From: a virus
Taxonomy: Duplodnaviria; Caudoviricetes
IMG/VR virus record: IMGVR_UViG_3300046717_000225
Coordinates: 1-64,000 of that record
Length of the DNA: 64,000 nt
Reading direction: 5' to 3' (one strand)
The notes below the pieces were generated by a model, which worked only from the letters and a program-made list of their open reading frames with translations, ran no database searches and had not been told where the DNA came from. The position numbers and the translations under genes were made by a program. Of the stretch, positions 925-49,194 are shown piece after piece. How positions within the stretch are numbered: position 1 is the first letter of the stretch; each line of letters opens with the position of its first letter.

Positions 925-950
925 GGTCGGTTCTCCTTGGTCTTCTGGTC

Positions 951-974
951 CGGGGCCCGGTCGACCGGGCCCCG
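951..974. terminator. perfect 24-bp palindrome, probable terminator hairpin
   Basis: CGGGGCCCGGTCGACCGGGCCCCG just downstream of the 981-1460 stop. Confidence 0.55.
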
Positions 975-980
975 TCGTGC

Positions 981-1460
981 TCAGCTCTCGTCGGCGAACT
1001 CAACGGCGATGACGGCCACTTCGGCATGCGTTTTGGGGAGGGTGGTCTCCAGCTGGTCCCTCAGGGAGGGGCCAGTGTCCAGGGCCACGTTCCCCTTGCG
1101 GTCCAGTACGGTCACGTGCCAGTAGCCGTCGTACCGGCGACCGAGGGTACCTCCGCCGATCTTGCTGACCTCGATGATCCGGCCGTCGTCCCGCAGCTCG
1201 CGGTACTCCACAGCCTCCAGCGGGCACTCCTTGGCCACGTGGAACTGGTCGGCGTTGTCCCGCTGGATGTAGCCGTGGCTCCGGCCCCACGTGATCGGGG
1301 TGCTGAACGCGTCCGGCGGGGTCTTCCAGGTCTGGGTCGGGCCGCTGCGGCGGCAGACCTCGACGCTCGTCTGTTCCCCGCCCCGGGACTTGTGCGTACG
1401 GGTGCAGGTTCCGTAGTGGAACTCGTCCTCGCTCAGGGCCTGTTCCCTGGATACGGGCAT
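981..1460 (-). CDS. hypothetical phage protein
   Basis: 159 aa, RBS AAGGAGGA. Confidence 0.75.
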   Translation of the reverse strand: MPVSREQALSEDEFHYGTCTRTHKSRGGEQTSVEVCRRSGPTQTWKTPPDAFSTPITWGRSHGYIQRDNADQFHVAKECPLEAVEYRELRDDGRIIEVSKIGGGTLGRRYDGYWHVTVLDRKGNVALDTGPSLRDQLETTLPKTHAEVAVIAVEFADES

Positions 1461-5441: not shown

Positions 5442-6070
5442 GCGCGCACCGCCATCCAGAGCTGGAAGGTGTAGGCGTCCGGGTAGTTCAGGGTCGACTG
5501 CGGGGTGAACAACTGGACCTCCAGCGGAATCCAGCCGTTGGCCTGAAGCATCTCGTGCACGTCCGCCTGGCCCCATCCCCAGTAGTGCTCGGCGTTCCCG
5601 GTCGAGGCGGGCTCGTCCAGGGGCGTGGACAGGAACAGGTAGCGGGCGTTCTGTGCAATCGCCCGGAGCAGTGCGTCCGGGTCGTCCACGTGCTCGATCG
5701 TCTCGGACAGGACGAACAGGTCGACCGGGGCGGGCAGGTGCACGAGCGTGTCCGGCAGGGGACCGGGCGGCACGTCCTCGGCGTCCATCGCCCCGCACGA
5801 CACCAGAGCCGACACCGGTGCCCCGTTCAGGTCACCGAAGACCGCATTGTCCAGGTACCGGCTGATCATGTTGAGCAGCGCCCCGTCCCCGCAGGACAGA
5901 TCAGCCGCCGACCGGATCGCGCCCCGGTACCTGTCGATCAGGTCGGCCGACGCCTTGACCCGCTCAATGTGATCGGGCCAGCGGTCGTGCTTGTAACCGT
6001 CCGGGTAGGTCCGCGCGTAGAACGCGGCCTCGCCCTCGGGACGGGCCTCACGCAGCCGGGTCCTTGTCAT
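5438..6070 (-). CDS. class I SAM-dependent methyltransferase
   Basis: DLSCGDG motif I, DLFVLSETIEHVDDP, LFLSTP. Confidence 0.85.
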   Translation of the reverse strand: MTRTRLREARPEGEAAFYARTYPDGYKHDRWPDHIERVKASADLIDRYRGAIRSAADLSCGDGALLNMISRYLDNAVFGDLNGAPVSALVSCGAMDAEDVPPGPLPDTLVHLPAPVDLFVLSETIEHVDDPDALLRAIAQNARYLFLSTPLDEPASTGNAEHYWGWGQADVHEMLQANGWIPLEVQLFTPQSTLNYPDAYTFQLWMAVRA

Positions 6071-12867: not shown

Positions 12868-13115
12868 GGGTTGCTCACATCCGCACTCCACACCGCACCC
12901 GGCCCGGCCGTGTCCGCACAGATACGGACCAGGCCCGCCCGGCGCAGCCGGTCCAGGGAGAGGTAGACGATGGTCTTGTCCAGGCCCAGTCCCTCGGCGA
13001 TCGAGTTCCGGGGCTTGGGACCGAGGTCCCTCAGCAGGCTGAGGATCATCCGGTCTCTCTCGATGGTCTCCTGGGGACGCGGGCGGCCCCGAGGACGCTT
13101 CTCTTCGGTGGTCAT
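12858..13115 (-). CDS. winged-helix DNA-binding protein with AT-hook-like motif
   Basis: RPRGRPRP then ILSLLRDLG...SIAEGLGLDKTIVYLSLDRLRRAGLV. Confidence 0.75.
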   Translation of the reverse strand: MTTEEKRPRGRPRPQETIERDRMILSLLRDLGPKPRNSIAEGLGLDKTIVYLSLDRLRRAGLVRICADTAGPGAVWSADVSNPCA

Positions 13116-13140
13116 GGTCCCTCTCCTCGGTTGATTTACC

Positions 13141-13464
13141 TTAACCGTTATTACCCGCATCAGTGCCGTTCCACGCCCCGCCGGGCGCCTGGAGCATTCC
13201 GGACCGGTGGGTGAGCGCGGTCGCCTTGTCCGTGTCCAGCATCGTGATGACCGGGATGGGCTCCGTCTCGGCCCAGGCCGGAACGACATACCGGCCGGGC
13301 AGCTCCAGGTCCAGGGGCTCCTCGGCCCGGTCCTCCAGGACGCCCTGGTGGTCACGCTCCAGCGCCGCATACGCGGCGCTCAGCTCCCGGTACCGGCGCC
13401 ACAGGGCGAGGTACGTGCTCCGCCGGACGAACGGACCGACAGAACTGCGCTTGTGCCGTGCCAT
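13141..13464 (-). CDS. hypothetical protein
   Basis: 107 aa, RBS ACCAAGGAGA. Confidence 0.7.
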   Translation of the reverse strand: MARHKRSSVGPFVRRSTYLALWRRYRELSAAYAALERDHQGVLEDRAEEPLDLELPGRYVVPAWAETEPIPVITMLDTDKATALTHRSGMLQAPGGAWNGTDAGNNG

Positions 13465-13511
13465 GGTCTTCTCCTTGGTCGGGCCCGGGGTTCACGCCCC
13501 GGGCCGATCGG

Positions 13512-14414
13512 TCAGCCGTTCAGCCTGTAGCAGGTCAGCCACGTACTCGTGATGTCCACGGACGAGCCCTTGGCCGCGTACCCGCCGGCCAGCGCGCTCT
13601 CGTTCTGGAGGATCCAGTCCGCCGTGTCCGGGAAGTCCGCGTGCACGGTCTTGAAGAGGCGCCCGTCGTAGTAGAAGCGTACGGACCCCGGGACGATCTC
13701 CTGGGAGTAGGTGTGCCAGCCGGTCCAGGCCGCGTTCCCGGCCGCGTCCGCTCCCGACTCGGCGAAGCCGTGGGTGAACTCGCTCACCGGGTCGCTCCGG
13801 AAGTTCCCGCCCGCCTCGGGGTAGTCGATCTCGTTCGGGGTGTAGCGCAGGTGCGCCATCTTGTACCCGTCGGTCAGGGCGCTCACGTGCGTCCGCTCGG
13901 TGAACTTGCCGTACCTCAGGTTCATGCATTTGAGCGGAACCGGTGCGGAGACGTGGTTGCTGCCGCCGGCGGATGGGCGCCACATGTGGACTTTGAGCTG
14001 GCCGTCGCCCTCGGGGGTCTTGATGACGGACATGGTGTCCTGTGGGGTGTACTTGCCGCCGAAGGTGCGGTTGTTGCCGTTGCTGTGGTTGGAGGGGTCG
14101 GCCGTGTCTCCCCAGCCGGACGGGTAGGCGCCCAGGGTGTTGTAGTACCCGGGGTACCGGGTCCGGAGACCGGAGCACTTGAAGTTGCCGTCGCCGGCGC
14201 AGCCGCTGAACGCTCCGAGCGGCACCTGGACCGCGTTGAAGTTCTCCCGGTAGACCTGGGTGAACGGGCCGCAGTTGCCGCTCGGGGCGTTGTTGTTGAC
14301 CGTATGACAGGCGTCCTGGCTCGGACTCGCTGCCCCCGCCGGAGGACTGAACGCGAAGACGAAGGCCCCCACCGCGACGAGCGCGGTGAGGACCCTGAGG
14401 ACTGACTTGAGCAT
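13512..14414 (-). CDS. secreted GH16-like glycoside hydrolase
   Basis: signal peptide ending PPAGAA; catalytic EIDYPE (ExDxxE); WHTYSQEIVPGSVRFYYDG. Confidence 0.75.
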   Translation of the reverse strand: MLKSVLRVLTALVAVGAFVFAFSPPAGAASPSQDACHTVNNNAPSGNCGPFTQVYRENFNAVQVPLGAFSGCAGDGNFKCSGLRTRYPGYYNTLGAYPSGWGDTADPSNHSNGNNRTFGGKYTPQDTMSVIKTPEGDGQLKVHMWRPSAGGSNHVSAPVPLKCMNLRYGKFTERTHVSALTDGYKMAHLRYTPNEIDYPEAGGNFRSDPVSEFTHGFAESGADAAGNAAWTGWHTYSQEIVPGSVRFYYDGRLFKTVHADFPDTADWILQNESALAGGYAAKGSSVDITSTWLTCYRLNG

Positions 14415-16404: not shown

Positions 16405-16419
16405 ACGTTGGGTATACCC
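16390..16419 (+). promoter_or_regulatory. GTTC-N16-GGGTAT promoter with palindrome GGGTATACCC
   Basis: lies at the divergence point upstream of ruvC. Confidence 0.5.
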
Positions 16420-16457
16420 CGATAGACAAAAACAAACCCGACCAAGGAGAGCAGACC

Positions 16458-17789: not shown

Positions 17790-17991
17790 GAGGTCTCGCT
17801 TCCGCTTGATGTTGGTCTTGGGTTGAGCAGAGGTGCGGGGCAAGTTACACCGGCCTGAGCCTATGACCCCTGCCCCGCTGTTCTGTTGTTGATCCGTGCA
17901 GGGCCGCTCGTAGATCCGAGCGCCTCCGGGGAGTGGTTTGACCCGTCCTGCGGTACCTGAAGTGTACCCTGAACGATTTCCTTAAACCGCC

Positions 17992-21531: not shown

Positions 21532-21572
21532 TTTAGTTAAACCATACCCTGCCTGGTCCTACGCGAACCGGT
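21532..21572 (-). promoter_or_regulatory. GTTC-N15-GGGTAT promoter followed by TTTAACTAAA box
   Basis: near-identical architecture to the 32260-32297 site. Confidence 0.6.
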
Positions 21573-27206: not shown

Positions 27207-27940
27207 CCATCAAGGCCATCGAGACCCGGTACGCGGGGTGCAGGTTCCGGTCCCGGCTGGAGGCGCGCTGGGCCGTGTTCTTCGACTCTCTCGGGGTCGC
27301 CTGGGAGTACGAGAAGGAGGGGTTCGAGACTCCGGATGGCGGGTACCTTCCGGACTTCTGGCTGCCCAACGGGGGAGGCTGGTGGGAGATCAAGGGGGAA
27401 GCTCCTTCCGAGCACGACCTCAACCGGTGCCGCTGGGTCCCTGGCCTGTGTGTCCTTGTAGGGGACATCCCTCGGGACATTGAAAGCCCGGACACGATCC
27501 AATGGCTCATGTACGGCTCCTGCTCAGACTGTGAACACGTGGGGCCTTGCTTCTGCGGGCATGGGAGCGTCTTCTGCCGGTGTGCTCCGGGACAGGAGGC
27601 GAAACGCTGGTTCACTGCGAGCTGGGACGAGTACTGGCCGTTCGGGGACAACCCTCGGCGGGTCTCCGACCAAGAGGCCCTGAACAGGGCCAGGTCTGCC
27701 CGGTTCGAGCATGGGGAGTCCGGAGCCCCTAAGGCTCAGCCCCCCAAGCGGGCTGCACCCCTGCACACGCCAACCGATAACCCGTTCAAGCCCCGGGGTG
27801 TGCTAGGTGAGCCCGAGGGGACGGAGCCCTGCTGCTCACGCTACCCATTTGGCTGTGACCACATCTGGTGCCCCCGCTGCAATGACTGGGGCAAGGACAC
27901 CGGGTCCGGCTGCTCCAAGCATGCCAACCCGTCCTGGTAG
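27203..27940 (+). CDS. PD-(D/E)xK nuclease-like protein, paralog 2
   Basis: FRSRLEARWA...WEYEKE...YLPDF...WWEIK. Confidence 0.7.
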   Translation: MTIKAIETRYAGCRFRSRLEARWAVFFDSLGVAWEYEKEGFETPDGGYLPDFWLPNGGGWWEIKGEAPSEHDLNRCRWVPGLCVLVGDIPRDIESPDTIQWLMYGSCSDCEHVGPCFCGHGSVFCRCAPGQEAKRWFTASWDEYWPFGDNPRRVSDQEALNRARSARFEHGESGAPKAQPPKRAAPLHTPTDNPFKPRGVLGEPEGTEPCCSRYPFGCDHIWCPRCNDWGKDTGSGCSKHANPSW

Positions 27941-30900: not shown

Positions 30901-32249
30901 AGCAGGCCGACCCGGACCGCATGGAGTACCGCCGGCGTGAGCAGCGCGTCGCCCACATCCAGAACCGGATGACGCTGTCTGGCTGGAAGGTCGACGTCCC
31001 CCTGCTCGCCCGGTGCGTCCGGGAGGAGGCCGACAAGGTCCGGGAGAGCCTGGGCTGGCTGAACGAGAACTGCGGCATCCCGCTGACGAAGTCGGTCGGC
31101 ACCGGCCGGGGCAAGAACCGGACCTTCCGGGACGAGCCCGTGCTGAGCCCGCTCACGACGACCGTCGGCCGGGAGGCGGTCAAGGCCGCGTTCCGGGACC
31201 GGGGGCTGCCGTACTTCCTGGAGACCGAGAGCGGCGCGCTGGCTCTGAACAAGGACGCCCTGGGAGAGGGCAGCTACATGGTCGGCAAGGGTGCGGCCGG
31301 GAAGCTGCTGCCCGGCCTGCTGAACCCGGCGCGCATGGCCCGGCTGCCCGGGGCCGACTGGGAGGCGATAGCGGAGATGGCCGGACACATCCGGCTCGTC
31401 ACCACCGCCGTGCAGAAGTACCAGGAGATCCAGGGCTTCCTCCTCGGCGACCGGGTGCACGCTCACGTTGGCGAGACGCAGGGCAGCCGTCGCTGGGCCA
31501 TGGTGAAGCCGAGCATCACCAACCTGGGGAAAAGAGGCGGCAAGGTCGTGCAGCGGGCGCCATTCATCGCCGACGACGGCTGCGTGCTGATCGCCTTCGA
31601 CTTCGACCAGGTGGACATGCGCGCGTTCGCGGGGCACTGCGGCGACCCGGAGTACGTCGGCATGTTCCTGCGGGAGGAGGACCCGCACTCCATGGTCGCG
31701 GACATGGTGTTCGGCAGGCATGATGGGGACTGGCGCGAGCACGCCAAGGGCGCCGGCCACGGCTGGAACTACGGCCTCAGCGTCGGCGGCATGGTCAACC
31801 AGGGCATCGAGCGTCCCCTGGCCGAGCGGTTCGACGCCGGTATGAACGAGAACTACCCGGTGCTCTGCTCCTGGCGGACCGAGGTCCGTGCACGGGCGGC
31901 GGACGGCCAGCTCCTGGAGAACGGGTTCGGCGCCCTGCTGCGGTGCGACCCGGCCCGTGCGTACACCCAGGCTCCGGCCCAGATCGGCCAGGGCACGGCC
32001 CGGGACATCATGTGTGAGGGCCTGCTGCGCCTGCCGCAGGAGTACGTGCCGTGGCTGCGGGGCGTGGTGCACGACGAGGCCGTGTTCAATGTGCCCGAGG
32101 GCCGGGTGGAGGAGTGCGTGGAACGGGTGACGGCCGCCTTCACGATGGACCTGGCCGAGATCACGAACGGACGGTTGCACTCGGTGCCGATTGTGGCCGG
32201 GGCGTCCAGGCCGGGGCACGACTGGGCATCTTGCTATTCCAAGGACTGA
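27957..32249 (+). CDS. primase (TOPRIM/DUF3854-like)-SF3 helicase-family A DNA polymerase fusion, 1430 aa
   Basis: WITEG, FDSD, KGVDDF; D5-like NCPNGIVDL; Walker A GGGENGKST, INSNH; exo DLET, HNGYRFDL, YLSGD; pol DFDQVDMR, REHAKGAGHGWNYG, VHDE. Confidence 0.92.
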   Translation: MTMEMAPADLLPGHARELEESCIAPQVRDRRRYETLYDTEESRARLKELRIPRWAWRDPMAFPGLLMPMYRVTGEEIGHQFKPALPQEAPGGKLQKYASQTGVPNRLDVPPAVADDVRDPSSPLWITEGIKKGDCLASLGKAVITLTGVFNWRSKMGTLGDWEDIPLRGRTTVICFDSDARDNRNVLGAMQRLGRWLESKGAAVRYLIVPGEVEGTEVKGVDDFFHAGGTLEALGQASMDQLPNEARDATFTDRVLADTVCSEELDGRFRWASGRGWMQWTGKVWREATEVTVTETISRWALEQYHQAVDQQHNGTGRDLGSVVEGWRGMLSGSRVGAVLRLAKGVLECDAEAFDRDPDLMNCPNGIVDLRTGTLTPNDPDLLMTKITGAEFVKNAEHPDWAKALEALPDDVVDWFQLRVGQALTGHMTPDDTVVICQGGGENGKSTVYDGLALAAGKYHVQVSDRAMMGGATDNHPTEIMDLMGARYAVLEETPEARRLDTNRLKKLTGTREITGRRIRQDPVTFEATHTIFINSNHKPVVDETDHGTWRRLALLAWPYTFRKPGQALHGANDRPGDPTLRDRIKLDPQVQEAALAWMAAGARRWYELEKIMPEQPVRVQADTLAWRKTADLILAFATEVLEFDRDSFIASTELRSVFNDWLREKGAKEWGEKTFSARFGGHDAVTQRGVEYKIVRNGPGLSTKALNPPSGKTLRVWAGIRFSGLPPCDRGNSGESGPPQVSGPTQDHVTPVTPDPVTPLEVTHASVIPATRNRRNTILDEYGPDPFEPEPAEPAPPVLNGPVAFDLETPSAKELFTFRSGEQTPYARLNGVLDGDGKEIITTDPAELVRLLTAAPALYAHNGYRFDLMALAWHHGADYDALAAKTWDTYVDETVLDPPGAKGQKPWATEGYYGLDKALERRGEPGKTDHLPALAREFAADGLTGKAAEEDGYGKIPPDNARYNAYLSGDLKAQDRLYRTQQADPDRMEYRRREQRVAHIQNRMTLSGWKVDVPLLARCVREEADKVRESLGWLNENCGIPLTKSVGTGRGKNRTFRDEPVLSPLTTTVGREAVKAAFRDRGLPYFLETESGALALNKDALGEGSYMVGKGAAGKLLPGLLNPARMARLPGADWEAIAEMAGHIRLVTTAVQKYQEIQGFLLGDRVHAHVGETQGSRRWAMVKPSITNLGKRGGKVVQRAPFIADDGCVLIAFDFDQVDMRAFAGHCGDPEYVGMFLREEDPHSMVADMVFGRHDGDWREHAKGAGHGWNYGLSVGGMVNQGIERPLAERFDAGMNENYPVLCSWRTEVRARAADGQLLENGFGALLRCDPARAYTQAPAQIGQGTARDIMCEGLLRLPQEYVPWLRGVVHDEAVFNVPEGRVEECVERVTAAFTMDLAEITNGRLHSVPIVAGASRPGHDWASCYSKD
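30204..30287. repeat. 16-bp perfect inverted repeat made of TGTTACGC iterons, putative origin
   Basis: GTTACGCCTGTTACGC (30204-30219) and GCGTAACAGGCGTAAC (30272-30287) in an AT-richer intragenic patch. Confidence 0.65.
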
Positions 32250-32254
32250 GCACG

Positions 32255-32297
32255 GGCCCGGTTCGTCCGGGCCGGGACAGGGTACGATTTAACTAAA
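32255..32297 (+). promoter_or_regulatory. hairpin plus GTTC-N15-GGGTAC promoter and TTTAACTAAA box
   Basis: GGCCCGG-TTCGT-CCGGGCC after the polymerase stop; AGGGTACGATTTAACTAAA. Confidence 0.6.
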
Positions 32298-32317
32298 GGT
32301 CCAAGGAGGATATGATC

Positions 32318-43040: not shown

Positions 43041-43075
43041 GAGGCCCCCGGGGTGTGTCCACGGTCGGGGGCCTC
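43041..43075. terminator. 10-bp inverted repeat
   Basis: GAGGCCCCCG...CGGGGGCCTC before the terminase gene. Confidence 0.55.
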
Positions 43076-43105
43076 GCCCCTGCCCGGACCGCCTATCCTC
43101 GGTCC

Positions 43106-44470
43106 ATGAGTGATCGGCAGCGCAGAGCGGGCCAGGCGGCGGAGCGTCTCCTGCTCCACGCGAGCACGCTCACCGAGCCCCGCTGGACCCCGCTCCCCTA
43201 CCAGGTCCCTCCGCCCGGGGACTGGTACGGCTGGCTGCTGCTCGCCGGCCGTGGAGCCGGCAAGACCGACGCCTGCGCCAAGTACATCTCCGATCATGTC
43301 GCCGGACCGCCGTGCCTGCCCGGTCCGGTCCCCCACTGGGTCGGCATCATCGCTCCGACCCTGGGGGACGCGGCCACGAGCTGTGTCACCGGACCGTCCG
43401 GCATCCTCCGTCACAGCCCCCAGGCCAAGATGGTCAACACGATGGGCGGCACGGTCGTCCGCTGGCCCAACGGAAGCGTGGCCAAGCTCTTCGGCGCCAA
43501 CACCCTGGAGGACACGGAGCGCCTGCGGTCCGGCGGTAACCGGTGCGCCGTATGGGGTGAGGAGATGGCCGCGTGGCGTTATCTGGACGAGGCCTGGGCT
43601 CAGATGCGGTTCGGCCTGCGTACCGGCCCCAGGCCGCACTGGGTGGCGAGCACGACCCCCAAGCCCCGCCCGCTCATCAAGAAGCTGGCCGCCGGGGGAG
43701 AGGCCAAGGTCGTTCTCAGCCGGGCCTCCATGTACGACAACCCCCACCTCCAGGAGCACGTCCGCCAGGCCCTGCTGGACGAGTACGAGGGCACCGACCT
43801 CGGCCGGCAGGAGCTGAATGCCGAGCTGCTCGACGAGGACAGCAACGCCCTGTGGACGCGGTCCTCCGTGGAGGCGAGCCGTCTCGCCGTGCCGGACACG
43901 AAGCTCATCCGCGTCACGATCGGCGTGGACCCCTCTGGCGGAGCCGGCGAGCAGGGCATCGTCGCCGTCGGCAAGGGAATGATCGTCCGGGACCATGAGG
44001 ACCCCCGCAAGCGCGTCCCCCTGCCGCACGGCTACGTCCTCGGCGACCGGACCGTGCACATGCGCCCGGAGGGCTGGGGGCGGGCAGCAGTCCAGGCTGC
44101 TGTGGAGTTCGAGGCGGACGACATCTGTGTCGAGATCAACTTCGGAGGGGACATGGCCGTCTCGACCATCCGTGCGGCAGCCGACGCCATGGGAGTCAAC
44201 ATTCCGATCAAGGTTGTCCGTGCTACCCGGGGCAAGCAGGTCCGTGCGCAGCCCGTGAGCGCGCTCACCGCACAGGGCCGGTTCCACATGGTGGGGGTGC
44301 ACCCCGAGCTGGAGGATCAGATGTGCGTCTGGTACCCGGAGCTGGACTGGAGCCCCGACCGGCTGGACGCGATGGTCTGGCCCGCCTGGCACAACCGCAT
44401 CGTCAAGATGACCATGACCGGCGGGGCTGTGAGCGGCGGCATGGAGCAGATGGCGCGCTCGATCGGGTGA
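43106..44470 (+). CDS. terL: terminase large subunit
   Basis: AGRGAGKT, WGEE, STTP, GRQELNAE, IGVDP, VEINFGG, SPDRLDA. Confidence 0.95.
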   Translation: MSDRQRRAGQAAERLLLHASTLTEPRWTPLPYQVPPPGDWYGWLLLAGRGAGKTDACAKYISDHVAGPPCLPGPVPHWVGIIAPTLGDAATSCVTGPSGILRHSPQAKMVNTMGGTVVRWPNGSVAKLFGANTLEDTERLRSGGNRCAVWGEEMAAWRYLDEAWAQMRFGLRTGPRPHWVASTTPKPRPLIKKLAAGGEAKVVLSRASMYDNPHLQEHVRQALLDEYEGTDLGRQELNAELLDEDSNALWTRSSVEASRLAVPDTKLIRVTIGVDPSGGAGEQGIVAVGKGMIVRDHEDPRKRVPLPHGYVLGDRTVHMRPEGWGRAAVQAAVEFEADDICVEINFGGDMAVSTIRAAADAMGVNIPIKVVRATRGKQVRAQPVSALTAQGRFHMVGVHPELEDQMCVWYPELDWSPDRLDAMVWPAWHNRIVKMTMTGGAVSGGMEQMARSIG

Positions 44471-44478
44471 CGCACGAA

Positions 44479-44496
44479 GGGGCCCCGAAGGGCCCC
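44479..44496. terminator. UUCG-tetraloop hairpin
   Basis: minus strand GGGGCCC-TTCG-GGGCCCC. Confidence 0.65.
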
Positions 44497-44502
44497 GACG
44501 CG

Positions 44503-44590
44503 AGAGGTGCGCTGACCAAGCTGCGCTACGCCTTCCGGACGGCGGCCCGGTCGGAGGCGGGATTTGAACCCGCGACATCCTCTTCCCCAT
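44503..44590 (-). tRNA. circularly permuted tRNA-Pro(GGG)-like element (3' half precedes 5' half)
   Basis: 3' half ATGGGGA-AGAGG-ATGTC-GCGGG-TTCAAAT-CCCGC-CTCCG-ACC; 11-nt linker; 5' half CGGAAGGCG-TA-GCGC-AGCTTGGTCA-GCGC-A-CCTCT; acceptor stem imperfect. Confidence 0.6.
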
Positions 44591-44622
44591 CAGGGTACCC
44601 CGATCGGATAAGCTAAATCCTC

Positions 44623-44805
44623 GTGGTCACTCTCTCGCTCACTACCGTGCTGGTCGTTTTCCTGCTGGGGTTCCTGCTGCACCGGCACGCCTCGGTCCGT
44701 ATCGCGGCCGTCGGCTGCTTCGTACTGGGGGTCCTCGTAGCTGCGAACCCCGTGGTCCACACGGTGGTGCATACTCTCGACGGAGCGTTCAACGCGCTCG
44801 TCTGA
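44623..44805 (+). CDS. small membrane protein
   Basis: two TM segments. Confidence 0.6.
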   Translation: MVTLSLTTVLVVFLLGFLLHRHASVRIAAVGCFVLGVLVAANPVVHTVVHTLDGAFNALV

Positions 44806-44821
44806 TCCCCTAGGAGGGGCC

Positions 44822-45046
44822 ATGGCCGCAAAGTATGTGCTCGATCTGGCCGAGAGAGTCGGCTCCACGTTCCTGCTCGCTGGGGCGTCCGTCCTGGTGG
44901 CTGCGGGGCCCGCCGACCTCTTCCACGCCAGTACCCTCCAGGCCGCAGGCGCAGCCGGCCTGGCCGCTGCACTGACCCTGGTCAAGGGCCTGCTCGCCCG
45001 GTACGTGGGCAACAAGGACAGCGCGTCCCTGGCCAAGGGCGTCTGA
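44822..45046 (+). CDS. holin (r1t-like)
   Basis: DLAERVGSTF...AGLAAALTLVKGLLA...ASL. Confidence 0.8.
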   Translation: MAAKYVLDLAERVGSTFLLAGASVLVAAGPADLFHASTLQAAGAAGLAAALTLVKGLLARYVGNKDSASLAKGV

Positions 45047-46425: not shown

Positions 46426-46709
46426 CCGAACCGCCTCAGGGCCCTCCGCCCTTCGACCCCGCGCACCCGGCCGTCGGCAGCGTGCAGGCGTGGCTCAACC
46501 TCGGCAAGCAGCGCACCCCGCAGGGCGAGTTCCTCATCCTCACGCTCCGGGTGCCGAACACGACCGTCACCGCCCTGCTCAGCAAGTCGGATGCCCAGGC
46601 CTGGATCGACGCCCTCCAGAACGAGGTGAACCAGATGTCCAGCCTGGTGATCGCGCCCCCGGGCGCAGTCGTTCCCCTGGGGAACTCGAACGGACGGCCC
46701 CATGGCTGA
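46422..46709 (+). CDS. hypothetical protein
   Basis: ATGA overlap. Confidence 0.65.
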   Translation: MTEPPQGPPPFDPAHPAVGSVQAWLNLGKQRTPQGEFLILTLRVPNTTVTALLSKSDAQAWIDALQNEVNQMSSLVIAPPGAVVPLGNSNGRPHG

Positions 46710-47292
46710 GTACAAGCTGTTCGAAGGCGATGTCCCGCACGTGAGCACGGCCGCGTTCCATGCCTACCGGGAGCGCGCCCCGCACCTGGAGCAAGCTGGA
46801 CACCGGCCTCGGCTCCTGCTCGCAGCCGAGTTCGTACGGGAAGCCCTGTCCCGGCCGGACGCCTTCACCGTGTCCGACCTCGGCTGCGGGGACGGCGGCC
46901 TGCTCAGTCTGATCAAGGGTATTCCGGACACGATCTCCTGGGGGTACGACTTCTGCCCGGCGAACGAGGCCGGGTGGGCTGAGCGCGGGGTCAAGGCCTA
47001 CCTCAAGGACGCGCTCTCCGACCTTGATGCTGTGGGTACCGTCGGCGACGTCGTGGTCATGACCGAGGTGCTGGAACATATCGCCAACCCTCACGGTGTT
47101 CTGCGTCGTTTGCGGTCCCGGTCGAAGAGCCTGGTCTGCTCCAGCCCCTGGAACGAGAACCTGAACAACCACAGCCCCGAGCACGCCTGGGCCTGGGACC
47201 TGGAAGGCTACGCCTCCATGATCCAGTCTGCGGGCTGGACCATCGAGCGGCACCAGCAGGCCGGACTGTTCCAGGTCGTGCTCGCGCGGTAG
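46702..47292 (+). CDS. class I SAM-dependent methyltransferase
   Basis: DLGCGDG, VMTEVLEH, CSSP; similar to 5438-6070. Confidence 0.85.
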   Translation: MAEYKLFEGDVPHVSTAAFHAYRERAPHLEQAGHRPRLLLAAEFVREALSRPDAFTVSDLGCGDGGLLSLIKGIPDTISWGYDFCPANEAGWAERGVKAYLKDALSDLDAVGTVGDVVVMTEVLEHIANPHGVLRRLRSRSKSLVCSSPWNENLNNHSPEHAWAWDLEGYASMIQSAGWTIERHQQAGLFQVVLAR

Positions 47293-47418: not shown

Positions 47419-49194
47419 ATGGCCTGGAAGCCCTTCGGCCGCAACACCCCAGCCGCTGTTACGGCCGCTGCCGCTCCGCCGTCCCTCACCGCCGCAGCGG
47501 CCAAGCCCAAGGACACCAGCGCGCGGTTCCTCCGCCACCCGGACAAGTGGCAGAACGAGGTCTGGGCCTACTACGACAACCTCGGCGAGTTCAACTACGG
47601 GGTGTGGTGGCTGTCCAACATGCTGAGCCGGGTCCGGCTACGGGCAGCAAAGCTCCAGCCCGACGTGGACGAGCCGGACATCGTGAACGAGGGCCCGGCT
47701 GCCGAACTGATGATGAGCCTCGGAGGCGGCGTCACCGGCCAGGCTCAGCTCATGAAGCGCCTCACCGTCCAGCTCTCCATCCCCGGGGAGGGCTACCTGA
47801 TCGGCGAACAGCAGAACGGCAAGGAGCGCTGGCAGGTCCGCTCCGTGGACGAGATCCGTTCCCAGTCCGGCGGGTACTACGTCATGGACGAGAACAGCGT
47901 CAACACCGGGCAGGACTGGCGGCCCCTGGCGGGGGACTCGTTCGTCACCCGGGTCTGGCGTCCGCACGACCGCTACTACCACCTGGCCGACTCGCCGGCC
48001 CGCTCCGCCCGGGACATCATGCGTGAGCTGGAGCTGGTCAACCGGAAGATCGTGGCAGAGTACCTGAGCCGTCTGGCGAGCGCGGGCATCATCGGCATCC
48101 CGGACGAGCTGACCTTCCCCGTGCGCGAGGAGTTCGCCGACGCGCCCAACCCCCTCGTGGCCGAGTTCATCGAGATCGCCGCACAGGCCATCGAGCACCC
48201 GGGCACGGCGAGTTCCGTCATCCCGATCCCGCTCGTCGGCCCGGCCGAAGCCATCAAGGCCATCACGCACATCGACTTCACCTTGGCGATGGACAGCGAG
48301 ATTATCGCCAAGCGGGACAGTGCGATCAAGCGCCTCGCGACGAAGCTCGATATGCCCGCAGAAGTCCTGCTCGGCATGGGCGACGTGAACCACTGGGGGG
48401 CCTGGCAGCTGGAGGAGGGTGCGCTCAAGACGCACATCGCGCCCGTGGCCGAGCTGATCTGTGACTCCCTCACCCGGGGCTACCTCGGTCCCCGGCTGGA
48501 GGCCAGCGGAGAGGACCCCACGGACTGGGTCGTCTGGTACGACATGAGCGAACTCGCCCTCCGGCCGGACAGGTCCGAGAACGCCCTGACCGCGTACGAC
48601 CGGCTGGAGTTGAACGGCGAGGCTCTGCGACGCGAGGTCGGGTTCGACGAGGACGACGCCCCCACGCCCGACGAGCTGGAGCAGATGGGTCTCAAGCTCC
48701 TGCTGCGCACCGTGCCCGCCGTCGCGCCCGAGGCGCTGGACAAGCTGGTGGGCCGGAAGGTGTTCACCCCGGAGGAGATCGCAGCGACCAAGCCGAAGCC
48801 GCCGGTTCCCGGGGCACCCCCGGGCAAGGCCCCGTCCGCACAGGGTCCGCCGGACACCCAGGGCAACGCACCCCCGCCTCCGGACCAGGGGGTCAAGCAG
48901 GCTGCCCGCAGCGCCAAGCTCCTCCAGCAGGCCCGCACGCAGCACATGGTCCGCTTCCGGGCGACCACGGGAGCGACCGAGCTGCTGCACCCCCGTCTGT
49001 GCCACGAGTACGAGTACTCCTGTCCCTTCACGCACGCGGTGAATGCGGGAGGCCGGGCCCGGCCGGGTACCTCCGGCGTCTACCTGTGCCACCTGGACAG
49101 CATCGGCCGGTTCGTTCTCGACGGGCCGTCCCCGTACTCCACGACGGGCGATCTGATCAGCACGATGATCCCGGCGGTGAACGGACATGGCTGA
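47419..49194 (+). CDS. portal protein
   Basis: large gene heading the virion operon; GEFNYGVWWL...SRVRL, IPGEGYL, RLATKLDMPAEVLLG, NHWGAWQ. Confidence 0.85.
   Translation: MAWKPFGRNTPAAVTAAAAPPSLTAAAAKPKDTSARFLRHPDKWQNEVWAYYDNLGEFNYGVWWLSNMLSRVRLRAAKLQPDVDEPDIVNEGPAAELMMSLGGGVTGQAQLMKRLTVQLSIPGEGYLIGEQQNGKERWQVRSVDEIRSQSGGYYVMDENSVNTGQDWRPLAGDSFVTRVWRPHDRYYHLADSPARSARDIMRELELVNRKIVAEYLSRLASAGIIGIPDELTFPVREEFADAPNPLVAEFIEIAAQAIEHPGTASSVIPIPLVGPAEAIKAITHIDFTLAMDSEIIAKRDSAIKRLATKLDMPAEVLLGMGDVNHWGAWQLEEGALKTHIAPVAELICDSLTRGYLGPRLEASGEDPTDWVVWYDMSELALRPDRSENALTAYDRLELNGEALRREVGFDEDDAPTPDELEQMGLKLLLRTVPAVAPEALDKLVGRKVFTPEEIAATKPKPPVPGAPPGKAPSAQGPPDTQGNAPPPPDQGVKQAARSAKLLQQARTQHMVRFRATTGATELLHPRLCHEYEYSCPFTHAVNAGGRARPGTSGVYLCHLDSIGRFVLDGPSPYSTTGDLISTMIPAVNGHG

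What the first reader, a model, noticed from the sequence alone, without database searches (positions are those of the whole stretch)
44479..44610. Circularly permuted tRNA-Pro(GGG)-like element downstream of terL
Seen, on the minus strand: an anticodon loop, V loop and T arm with a 3' end (44590-44549) come first, then an 11-nt linker, then a 5' half with D arm (44537-44503), then a cUUCGg hairpin. Joined, the halves make a perfect CCTCT/AGAGG anticodon stem with a 7-nt loop (GGG, G37), U8-A9, GG in the D loop, a G15-C48 pair and a TTCAAAT T loop. A GATT-N15-GGGTAC promoter-like sequence ends 4 nt before the 3' half, so transcription would start in the anticodon loop. Caveat: the acceptor stem is irregular (about 5 bp plus a bulge, ending ACCG). 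Known: permuted tRNA genes are described in some algae and archaea; I know of none in phages. Inference: it could be a processed or ligated tRNA, a tRNA-mimic decoy for anticodon nucleases, or the relic of a tandem duplication or att event.
Basis: partly seen in the sequence, partly recalled or inferred. Interest (0 to 1): 0.85.

Follow-up and report, generated by a model that had tools for sequence, protein, structure and literature searches.

The report
Inside-out tRNA-Pro mimic after terL
A 130-base insertion just after the terminase gene of one uncultivated actinophage carries a proline tRNA turned inside out (acceptor end sealed, chain opened at the anticodon), the layout of bacterial Y-RNA tRNA mimics; it occurs in this phage only, has no Ro-binding handle and no partner gene, and nothing here shows that it is used.

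Summary
On the minus strand, 44503-44590 carries every core feature of a tRNA-Pro(GGG), with the 3' half ahead of the 5' half. Re-joined, the halves align without a break to real actinobacterial tRNA-Pro genes (up to 87% identity, D arm to T arm).

It is not a working tRNA gene. ARAGORN rejects the re-joined sequence at default settings. The acceptor strands form a sealed 28-nt hairpin. The phage encodes no RNA ligase, RtcB or splicing endonuclease.

The order (closing stem, V loop, T arm, sealed acceptor hairpin, D arm) is that of the tRNA-like module of YrlA Y RNAs. Rfam YrlA is the best hit (25.5 bits), and a model built from YrlAs of related phages scores 25.3 bits. Several relatives carry Rsr plus YrlA between terL and portal. 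This phage has no Rsr, and the element lacks the handle motifs.

The element is a ~130-nt insertion, antisense to the late operon and flanked by an 11-nt duplication of the terL end. It is absent from all 41 relatives checked and from every collection searched, so covariation cannot be tested.

Best reading: a stand-alone tRNA-mimic RNA derived from tRNA-Pro (0.45). Main rival: an inert relic (0.3). Earlier follow-ups in this scan reported YrlA-topology mimics in other phages.

The parts
43055..44470 (+). terL (large terminase), the gene upstream of the insertion
   Evidence: Pfam Terminase_6N/6C and PHROG 2; 45% identity to Streptomyces phage mu1/6 TerL
44460..44470 (+). Direct repeat copy 1, CGATCGGGTGA: the true 3' end of terL including its stop codon
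   Evidence: It differs from copy 2 by one synonymous change and one stop-to-stop change
44479..44496 (.). Perfect 7-bp GC hairpin with a UUCG (minus strand) or CGAA (plus strand) loop. It may end the minus-strand RNA and/or be the usual post-gene hairpin of terL
   Evidence: This phage often has 'stop, 6-8 nt, GC hairpin' after genes, in the orientation of the gene. No U-tract; not called by the generic terminator scan
44503..44507 (-). CCUCU, tRNA positions 27-31: 3' strand of the closing ('anticodon') stem
   Evidence: 5/5 Watson-Crick pairs with 44583-44579; pair probability 0.76-0.95
44509..44526 (-). D arm GCGC-AGCUUGGUCA-GCGC (A14, G15, G18, G19, A21), preceded by U8-A9 at 44528-44527
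   Evidence: Read directly from the sequence; aligned to the D arm of YrlA models and of real tRNA-Pro
44529..44556 (-). Sealed acceptor-like hairpin (28 nt, CGCC loop), made of the two acceptor strands, the ACC remnant and the linker
   Evidence: 9 of 12 in-register pairs, p=0.016 against shuffles; inner 6 of 6 pairs, p=0.02. It is the MFE fold of the segment. In the whole RNA it competes with an alternative fold
44557..44573 (-). T arm GCGGG-UUCAAAU-CCCGC
   Evidence: pair probability 0.88-0.98
44574..44583 (-). AGAGG (tRNA positions 39-43, 5' strand of the closing stem) followed by the V loop AUGUC (G46, C48)
44584..44590 (-). AUGGGGA: remnant of the tRNA-Pro(GGG) anticodon loop, left as a 5' single-stranded tail
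   Evidence: collinear with real tRNA-Pro across the joint
44593..44600 (.). Palindrome GGGTACCC. On the minus strand GGGTAC is a -10-like box; the YrlA model instead aligns it with the conserved GGUUAC(UUC) motif
44601..44611 (+). Direct repeat copy 2, CGATCGGATAA: a duplicated terL end, identical to the terL end of relative L010
44615..44619 (-). GATTT, a -35-like box 14 nt upstream of GGGTAC. It lies in flank sequence that relatives share
   Evidence: One mismatch to the GGTTY-N14/15-GGGTAY family. The family has 6 exact sites against 0.2 expected, but one-mismatch sites number about 8 against 5 expected
44623..44805 (+). Next late gene (60-aa membrane protein). In relatives it starts 5-45 nt after the terL stop

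Best explanation
The element is a stand-alone tRNA-mimic RNA cassette derived from a tRNA-Pro(GGG), with the topology of the tRNA-like module of YrlA Y RNAs. The two ends pair through the former anticodon stem. The V loop, T arm and D arm keep every nucleotide needed for the tRNA elbow. The acceptor end is sealed into a hairpin. Shown: the anatomy, the descent from tRNA-Pro, that it is a ~130-nt insertion specific to this phage and antisense to the late operon, and that it has no Ro handle and no Rsr or other evident partner gene. Inferred: a ~110-130-nt minus-strand RNA is made, running from about 44590 (or from further upstream) to the GC hairpin. It folds into an L-shaped tRNA core and is recognised by host enzymes that read tRNA shape (TruB, Dus, RNase P, CCA-adding enzyme). 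It would then act as a decoy or sponge, or as a nuclease-resistant scaffold. As with the YrlA of Mycobacterium smegmatis (another actinobacterium), RNase P might open the sealed acceptor loop and the encoded ACC might be completed to CCA. It does not decode proline codons.
For: Rfam's best hit over the region is YrlA: full model length, 25.5 bits, E=0.003 locally and 1.1e-4 for the whole genome. A covariance model built from five Rsr-linked YrlAs of related phages finds it at 25.3 bits (E about 2e-4). Unrelated YrlA-like RNAs score 30-32 bits with that model. True YrlAs of this phage lineage also fall below Rfam's cut-off, at 26-51 bits. All stems are perfect (5+5+4 bp), and U8, A14, G15-C48, G18, G19, A21, G46, G53-C61, U54, U55, C56 and A58 are all present. 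The YrlA-type fold lies within 1.4 kcal/mol of the MFE. The linker is complementary, so the acceptor is closed (p about 0.02). The insertion consists of little besides a -10-like box, the RNA and a GC hairpin. Relatives of this phage carry Rsr plus YrlA in the same terL-to-portal region, and the phage has a second, conserved non-canonical tRNA-like RNA. tRNA-like RNAs are therefore recurrent cargo in this lineage. M. smegmatis YrlA is cut by RNase P and gains CCA in vivo (PMC4201824).
Against: There is no homologue anywhere, so conservation and covariation are untestable. It is absent from 38 IMG/VR relatives, from the three closest Logan contigs (TerL 84-89% identical), from full records of 30 relatives, and from pattern scans of IMG/VR, GTDB genomes and JGI metagenomes. 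Promoter evidence is weak. The generic scan calls no sigma-70 promoter or intrinsic terminator. The hairpin matches the phage's usual post-gene hairpins in the orientation of terL. The D arm and sealed acceptor have only about 6% probability in the thermodynamic ensemble. No transcript data exist.
Confidence: 0.45

Rival explanations
1. Inert relic. A fragment of a head-to-tail pair of tRNA-Pro genes (3' half, spacer, 5' half) was inserted behind terL together with a standard post-gene hairpin. It is tolerated but not used.
For: It is a singleton insertion missing even from an 89%-identical TerL relative. The remnants of the anticodon loop (AUGGGGA) and of the 3' ACC look like leftovers, not functional parts. 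Tandem tRNAs are a known source of false YrlA hits (PMC4201824). The 11-nt duplication of the terL end points to an insertion or illegitimate recombination event. Promoter evidence is weak.
Against: A clean cut at both strands of the anticodon stem, so that the ends pair 5/5, needs two precise deletions. All 14 stem pairs and all tertiary-contact nucleotides are intact, even though the element differs by at least 13% from any known tRNA. The spacer is complementary and closes the acceptor. No tRNA with this anticodon arm plus T arm exists in 185,579 genomes or in JGI metagenomes, so it is not a recent capture from a sequenced host.
Confidence: 0.3
2. A plus-strand cis element. What matters is the structured spacer in the late mRNA: the post-terL hairpin plus a compact domain closed by pairing of the two repeat copies. 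It would insulate terL from the next gene or keep the two translationally coupled. On this reading the tRNA likeness of the opposite strand is incidental.
For: The element lies inside the + strand late operon. The arrangement 'TGA, GCACGA, GC hairpin' recurs after other genes in the orientation of the gene. The MFE of the extended region pairs CGAUCGGG with CCCGAUCG, which encloses the whole insertion. Relatives keep terL and the next gene 5-45 nt apart.
Against: This does not explain why the filler is a complete tRNA core with canonical T and D loops on the other strand. Relatives do without any spacer.
Confidence: 0.1
3. A true Y RNA that works with a host-encoded Rsr (Ro60). Its handle would be formed by flanking sequence, such as UCCGAUCG upstream pairing with CCCGAUCG downstream.
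For: Close relatives encode Rsr plus YrlA in the same genome region. [quoted passage not shown]
Against: The phage has no TROVE gene. The lineage's conserved UGCGNAG, GNUUACUUC and UUGAUCUC motifs are absent. The candidate handle is terL coding sequence that is also present in relatives lacking the element. Whether the host has Rsr is unknown.
Confidence: 0.1
4. A genuine permuted tRNA-Pro(GGG) gene whose transcript is processed and joined, or used as two pieces, to decode CCC/CCU.
For: The order of the halves, the intact GGG anticodon with G37, the C1-G72/A73-like remnant and the encoded ACC. The re-joined sequence aligns without a break to tRNA-Pro.
Against: ARAGORN rejects the re-joined sequence at default settings because the acceptor is irregular. 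Known permuted tRNAs need BHB splicing endonuclease and ligase, and are known only from algae and one archaeon (PMC3978253). The phage has none of these enzymes, and the splicing endonuclease family rang only in the archaeal controls. A primary transcript has a 5'-triphosphate end and this one carries a 3' trailer, and no known bacterial pathway would join those.
Confidence: 0.04

Closest known systems
YrlA (Y RNA-like A; Rfam RF02553; Chen et al. 2014, PMC4201824), including the YrlAs of mycobacteriophages and of relatives of this phage
   Same: Same order of elements: closing stem, V region, T arm, acceptor-like stem closed by a loop, two nucleotides, D arm, return strand. The T-stem sequence (GCGGG/CCCGC) and the tertiary-contact nucleotides are the same. 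It is found in actinophages, and in close relatives YrlA lies in the same terL-to-portal region.
   Different: No Rsr-binding handle (GNCGAAN0-1G; in this lineage UGCGNAG with UUGAUCUC). No rsr gene in the phage. It lies on the strand opposite to its neighbours. It keeps a full 7-nt anticodon-loop remnant and an ACC remnant, and is 81-87% identical to real tRNA-Pro, so it arose from a tRNA on its own and is not a diverged YrlA. The acceptor hairpin is 28 nt, against about 18 nt.
Circularly permuted tRNA genes of Cyanidioschyzon merolae, green algae and Thermofilum pendens (Soma 2014 review, PMC3978253)
   Same: The 3' half lies upstream of the 5' half, with a short intervening sequence (1-74 bp in known cases) between the acceptor strands.
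   Different: Those genes mature through a BHB motif, splicing endonuclease, ligase and a circular intermediate, and their re-joined sequences are good tRNAs. Here the joint lies at 31/32, no such enzymes are present, and the acceptor is irregular and sealed.
Two-piece tmRNA from permuted ssrA genes (alpha-proteobacteria, cyanobacteria; from my own knowledge, not checked here)
   Same: A bacterial precedent for a permuted tRNA-like gene whose acceptor loop is cut out, leaving two paired pieces.
   Different: ARAGORN, which detects permuted tmRNA, finds nothing. There is no tag reading frame and no pseudoknots, and a true D arm is present.
Permuted tRNA mimics with YrlA topology reported by earlier follow-ups of this scan in other phages (e1-5665627, e1-5367721, e1-2703945, e1-3443960)
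   Same: A tRNA core with a sealed acceptor and an opened anticodon arm, encoded by phages.
   Different: Those sit on a conserved stem or handle next to a conserved partner protein (Ro60-like or DUF7873) and recur in many genomes. This one has no handle, no partner and no second copy anywhere.

Membership tests
YrlA (RF02553) | tRNA-like module in the order T arm, loop-closed acceptor stem, D arm, closed by pairing of the flanks | tested here: met
   cmscan alignment over model positions 1-114; lineage model R1 aligns positions 13-111; manual model within 1.4 kcal/mol of the MFE
YrlA (RF02553) | Rsr-binding motif GNCGAAN0-1G near the 5' end (in this lineage UGCGNAG, with UUGAUCUC on the 3' side) | tested here: not met
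   The motifs are invariant in five lineage YrlAs and absent from the element. R1 leaves model positions 1-12 and 112-131 unaligned. The only near match (UCCGAUCG) is terL-derived flank sequence
YrlA (RF02553) | Encoded within about 4 kb of rsr (TROVE protein), on the same strand | tested here: not met
   No TROVE match in the complete 79-kb phage. Neighbours are terL, small membrane proteins, a methyltransferase and portal; large ORFs carry no Ro-like domain
YrlA (RF02553) | Score at or above the Rfam gathering threshold (69 bits) | tested here: not met
   25.5 bits. Rsr-adjacent YrlAs of relatives also score only 26-51 bits, so this test does not discriminate well in this lineage
Circularly permuted tRNA gene | 3' half upstream of the 5' half, with a short intervening sequence | tested here: met
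Circularly permuted tRNA gene | The re-joined sequence is a valid tRNA | tested here: not met
   ARAGORN finds 0 genes at default settings; it reports a tRNA-Pro(ggg) with a mismatched acceptor only with relaxed -ps. tRNAscan-SE and Infernal could not be run on a re-joined sequence with these tools
Circularly permuted tRNA gene | BHB motif at the joint, with splicing endonuclease and ligase available | tested here: not met
   The phage has no tRNA_int_endo, RtcB or RNA ligase families. The endonuclease family rang only in the archaeal controls. The BHB fold itself was not modelled
Circularly permuted tRNA gene | Circular intermediate and a mature, aminoacylated tRNA | not testable with these tools
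   Needs outward RT-PCR and acid-gel northern blots
Canonical tRNA gene (RF00005) | Detected by ARAGORN or Rfam as a contiguous tRNA | tested here: not met
   0 tRNAs in the window and in the whole genome. RF00005 scores 22.5 bits against a cut-off of 29, with the anticodon arm deleted
Phage attP or tRNA-derived att relic | An integrase in the genome and a tRNA 3'-part core shared with a host tRNA | tested here: not met
   No tyrosine or serine recombinase. No genome or metagenome tRNA carries this anticodon arm plus T arm
Two-piece (permuted) tmRNA | Detected by ARAGORN's permuted-tmRNA search; tag reading frame present | tested here: not met

The most novel reading that the evidence does not exclude
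A Ro-independent, stand-alone permuted tRNA-Pro mimic that host enzymes convert into a two-piece tRNA-like molecule. RNase P would open the sealed acceptor, as in M. smegmatis YrlA. The encoded ACC would be completed to CCA. The product would then be charged, or would soak up a host factor or defence toxin that recognises the tRNA elbow or acceptor. This would make it a minimal phage-made tRNA decoy that arose recently and directly from a tRNA gene.
Probability: 0.08. Interest if true: 0.8.

Novelty: new variant of a known kind. Interest (0 to 1): 0.4.

Why it matters
If it is expressed, it would be a very young, minimal example of how a tRNA mimic of the Y-RNA type can arise directly from a tRNA gene. 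It has no Ro handle and no partner protein. It sits in a phage lineage whose other members carry the full Rsr-YrlA module in the same genome region. That would give a natural comparison for asking what the tRNA-like module does on its own. If it is a relic, it documents that such permuted fragments are generated and tolerated inside a tightly packed late operon.

Tried and rejected
1. Canonical tRNA or tmRNA: ARAGORN finds nothing in the window or the genome.
2. Homologues by sequence: blastn against cultured phages; blastn and nhmmer against 38 relative loci; BLAST against full records of 30 relatives, which gave only chance GC-rich matches inside coding regions.
3. Homologues by pattern: two IMG/VR scans returned true tandem tRNAs and one ordinary YrlA. 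GTDB scans returned tandem tRNA-Ser/Pro and one YrlA-like RNA. JGI metagenome scans returned nothing or chance matches.
4. Closer relatives through exact-protein look-ups: an identical second assembly, plus three contigs with 84-89% TerL identity that lack the insertion.
5. Partner protein: no TROVE, Ro-like or other candidate nearby or among the large ORFs. DUF7873 could not be searched by accession.
6. Ligation or splicing enzymes, integrases and reverse transcriptase: none.
7. Promoter: the family is real, but this site is only a one-mismatch member.
8. Minus-strand terminator reading of the hairpin: the recurring 'UCGUGC tail' I first noticed turned out to be the stop codon plus GCACGA of upstream genes read on the other strand. 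The orientation of the hairpin is therefore ambiguous.
9. Host assignment through Rsr content could not be done. The supplementary tables of PMC4201824 are not held.

Full report
WHAT IS THERE

The window is bases 1-64000 of a complete 79,319-bp uncultivated phage with 127-bp terminal repeats and 68% G+C. TerL relatives occur in Streptomyces genomes, so the host is probably a Streptomyces or a close actinomycete.

On the minus strand, the region 44590-44503 reads in this order:
- AUGGGGA, then AGAGG
- V loop AUGUC
- T arm GCGGG-UUCAAAU-CCCGC
- a 28-nt segment, then U-A
- D arm GCGC-AGCUUGGUCA-GCGC, then A
- CCUCU

This is followed by CGCGUC and a perfect hairpin, GGGGCCC-UUCG-GGGCCCC (44496-44479).

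The likeness to tRNA is not chance. Joining the 5' half to the 3' half gives a 77-mer that hits real tRNA genes in 348 of 401 sampled Actinomycetota genomes. The best matches are 87% identical over positions 9-70, so they run straight across the artificial joint. The top hit, G368, is an unpublished genome. The same 87% figure holds in G412 and G038, which are not on the unpublished list, and I rest the claim on those two. ARAGORN calls these hits tRNA-Pro with CGG, UGG or GGG anticodons. Annotated tRNA-Pro genes of cultured phages match at 77-80%. A second, independent assembly (Logan, SRR26075071) contains the identical 201 nt.

CONTEXT, AND A CORRECTION

Codon-position G+C, Pfam and PHROG hits, and the gene calls on the Logan contig all show that the real genes here lie on the + strand. 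In order they are:
- terL, 43055-44470
- a 60-aa membrane protein, 44623-44805
- a holin-like protein
- a DUF1360 protein
- a SAM methyltransferase
- portal, 47419-49194

The minus-strand ORF 44613-44972 is an antisense artefact. The element therefore lies antisense inside the late operon, not between convergent genes.

In the eight closest IMG/VR relatives, and in the three closest Logan contigs (TerL 89%, 84% and 84% identical), the next gene starts 5-45 nt after the terL stop. This phage therefore carries a ~130-nt insertion (44471-44600). The insertion is bracketed by an 11-nt direct repeat, CGATCGGGTGA at 44460-44470 and CGATCGGATAA at 44601-44611. The first copy is the working terL end. 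The second copy is identical to the terL end of relative L010. The two differences between them are one synonymous change and one stop-to-stop change.

IS IT A tRNA GENE?

No.
- ARAGORN finds no tRNA or tmRNA in the window or the genome. It rejects the re-joined sequence at default settings, and reports a tRNA-Pro(ggg) with a mismatched acceptor only in relaxed mode.
- Rfam's tRNA model gives 22.5 bits against a cut-off of 29, and only by deleting the anticodon arm.
- The 5' acceptor strand has nine nucleotides before U8. The 3' strand has five before the A-C-C remnant.
- Known permuted tRNA genes number 34, in six algae and one archaeon. They mature through a BHB motif, the splicing endonuclease, a ligase and a circular intermediate (PMC3978253). 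The phage encodes no tRNA-splicing endonuclease, RtcB or RNA ligase, and the endonuclease family rang only in archaeal control genomes.
- It is not an att relic either. The phage has no tyrosine or serine recombinase and no reverse transcriptase. No tRNA with this anticodon arm plus T arm exists in 185,579 species genomes or in the JGI metagenomes.

WHAT IT RESEMBLES

The best Rfam hit over the region is YrlA, aligned over the full model at 25.5 bits (E=0.003 locally, 1.1e-4 for the genome). YrlA Y RNAs bind the Ro60 orthologue Rsr. They contain a tRNA-like module with exactly this order: T arm, an 'acceptor' stem closed by a loop, then D arm, with the RNA ends pairing where the anticodon stem would be. 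They were reported in 254 bacteria and 22 phages, always within 4 kb of rsr (PMC4201824).

The 28 nt between the T stem and U8 form one continuous hairpin, in register with both. Nine of 12 positions pair (p=0.016 against shuffles). The six inner pairs, built from the ACC remnant and the 'linker', are all Watson-Crick or G-U (p=0.02). This YrlA-type fold of the core is within 1.4 kcal/mol of the MFE. The closing stem and T arm are near-certain in the ensemble, but the D arm and sealed acceptor compete with an alternative pairing.

THE LINEAGE

Relatives of this phage carry the real module. TROVE genes sit with YrlA-like RNAs in G020, G026 and G028. The same is true of the 84%-TerL relative L201, where YrlA lies at 5839-5947 (44.4 bits) about 230 nt upstream of the TROVE gene. 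In L201, G020 and G028 the module lies in the terL-to-portal region, on the terL strand.

Five of these YrlAs share invariant UGCGNAG and G-N-UUACUUC motifs on the 5' side and UUGAUCUC on the 3' side. A covariance model built from them finds our element at 25.3 bits. Two unrelated YrlA-like RNAs score 30-32 bits. For our element only model positions 13-111 align, so the handle is missing.

The phage itself has no TROVE gene and no Ro-like or other candidate partner among its neighbours or large ORFs. The element therefore shares the architecture of the YrlA tRNA module but fails three of the four defining tests of the family. Its 81-87% identity to real tRNA-Pro, including a full anticodon-loop remnant that YrlAs lack, shows that it arose from a tRNA independently and is not a diverged YrlA.

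IS IT EXPRESSED?

Only weak inference is possible.

Promoter. The phage has a genuine promoter family, GGTTY-N14/15-GGGTAY, with six exact sites against 0.2 expected and none at other spacings. The site in front of the element is GATTT-N14-GGGTAC, which has one mismatch. About eight one-mismatch sites exist against five expected by chance. Its -35 box lies in flank sequence that relatives also have. The generic scan finds no sigma-70 promoter and no intrinsic terminator.

Hairpin. The GC hairpin has no U-tract. The phage often places such hairpins 6-8 nt after stop codons in the orientation of the gene, twice with the same GCACGA spacer as behind terL. The hairpin may therefore belong to terL, to the minus-strand RNA, or to both.

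Long-range pairing. The two repeat copies contain the palindrome CGATCG and can pair (CGAUCGGG with CCCGAUCG). The MFE of the extended region uses this stem to enclose the whole insertion. On the plus strand, this would bring the terL stop close to the next start codon.

VERDICT

The 'permuted tRNA' description is structurally right, but the reading as a functional, ligated tRNA is not supported. The closest known kind is the tRNA-like module of YrlA.

| Reading | Probability |
|---|---|
| Stand-alone tRNA-mimic RNA cassette | 0.45 |
| Inert relic of a head-to-tail tRNA-Pro pair | 0.30 |
| Plus-strand structural spacer | 0.10 |
| True Y RNA using a host Rsr | 0.10 |
| Real permuted tRNA | 0.04 |

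Arguments for function:
- the exact trimming at both strands of the anticodon stem
- intact stems and tertiary-contact nucleotides despite at least 13% divergence from any known tRNA
- a complementary linker that seals the acceptor
- an insertion with almost nothing in it beyond the RNA

Arguments against function:
- it is a singleton, so there is no conservation or covariation to test
- the promoter and terminator are unproven
- there are no transcript data

Earlier follow-ups of this scan reported YrlA-topology tRNA mimics in other phages. Those have conserved handles and partner proteins, and this one has neither.

Noticed in passing
G000 79003-79143, minus strand (outside the window; L002:1425-1565): A second non-canonical tRNA-like RNA. 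RF00005 gives 25 bits with a 32-nt insertion that extends the anticodon arm, and a hairpin with loop AGCCGUAAU precedes it. It is conserved in relatives G006 (75% identity) and G028 (70%). The consensus fold has 35 pairs, 11 of them with compensatory changes. No Rfam family reaches its threshold.
   Followed up: partly
L201:5839-5947 and 6175 onward; G028 78200-78304 and about 76-77.8 kb; G026 13106-13346 and 14362 onward; G020 912-978 and about 86.3 kb: Relatives of this phage carry an Rsr (TROVE) gene with one or two YrlA-like RNAs. In L201, G020 and G028 these lie in the terL-to-portal region. All score below Rfam's YrlA cut-off (26-51 bits) and share UGCGNAG, GNUUACUUC and UUGAUCUC motifs.
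   Followed up: partly
window 16414-16438(-), 17964-17988(-), 21544-21569(-), 27321-27346(+), 32260-32285(+); G000 78602-78626(-): A promoter-like family, GGTTY-N14/15-GGGTAY: six exact sites against 0.2 expected and none at other spacings. Three are followed 2 nt later by a near-palindromic TTTA(G/A)CTAAA box. A related box (ATAAGCTAAAT) sits between terL and the next gene here and in relatives.
   Followed up: partly
window 930-1000, 2760-2830, 13465-13530, 32225-32300, 44468-44496: A recurrent intergenic module: stop codon, 6-8 nt (twice GCACGA), a perfect GC-rich hairpin, then the ribosome-binding site or promoter of the next gene. At 32255-32273 the hairpin loop holds the -35 box of the next promoter.
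   Followed up: no
L038:2753-5011 (G028); proteins P0059, P0062, P0074, P0079, P0084, P0091-P0093, P0108: Several TerL relatives are 570-750 aa long and carry Hint or intein domains (PF13403, PF14890), so inteins have invaded terL in this phage group. The terL in this window has none.
   Followed up: no
window 44460-44467 and 44599-44606: The two copies of the duplicated terL end contain the palindrome CGATCG and can pair as an 8-bp stem on either strand. This encloses the whole insertion as one folded domain and brings the terL stop next to the start region of the following gene.
   Followed up: partly
window 46702-47292: A SAM-dependent methyltransferase (Methyltransf_23) sits just upstream of portal. 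Its homologue in G028 lies directly beside the Rsr-YrlA module.
   Followed up: no
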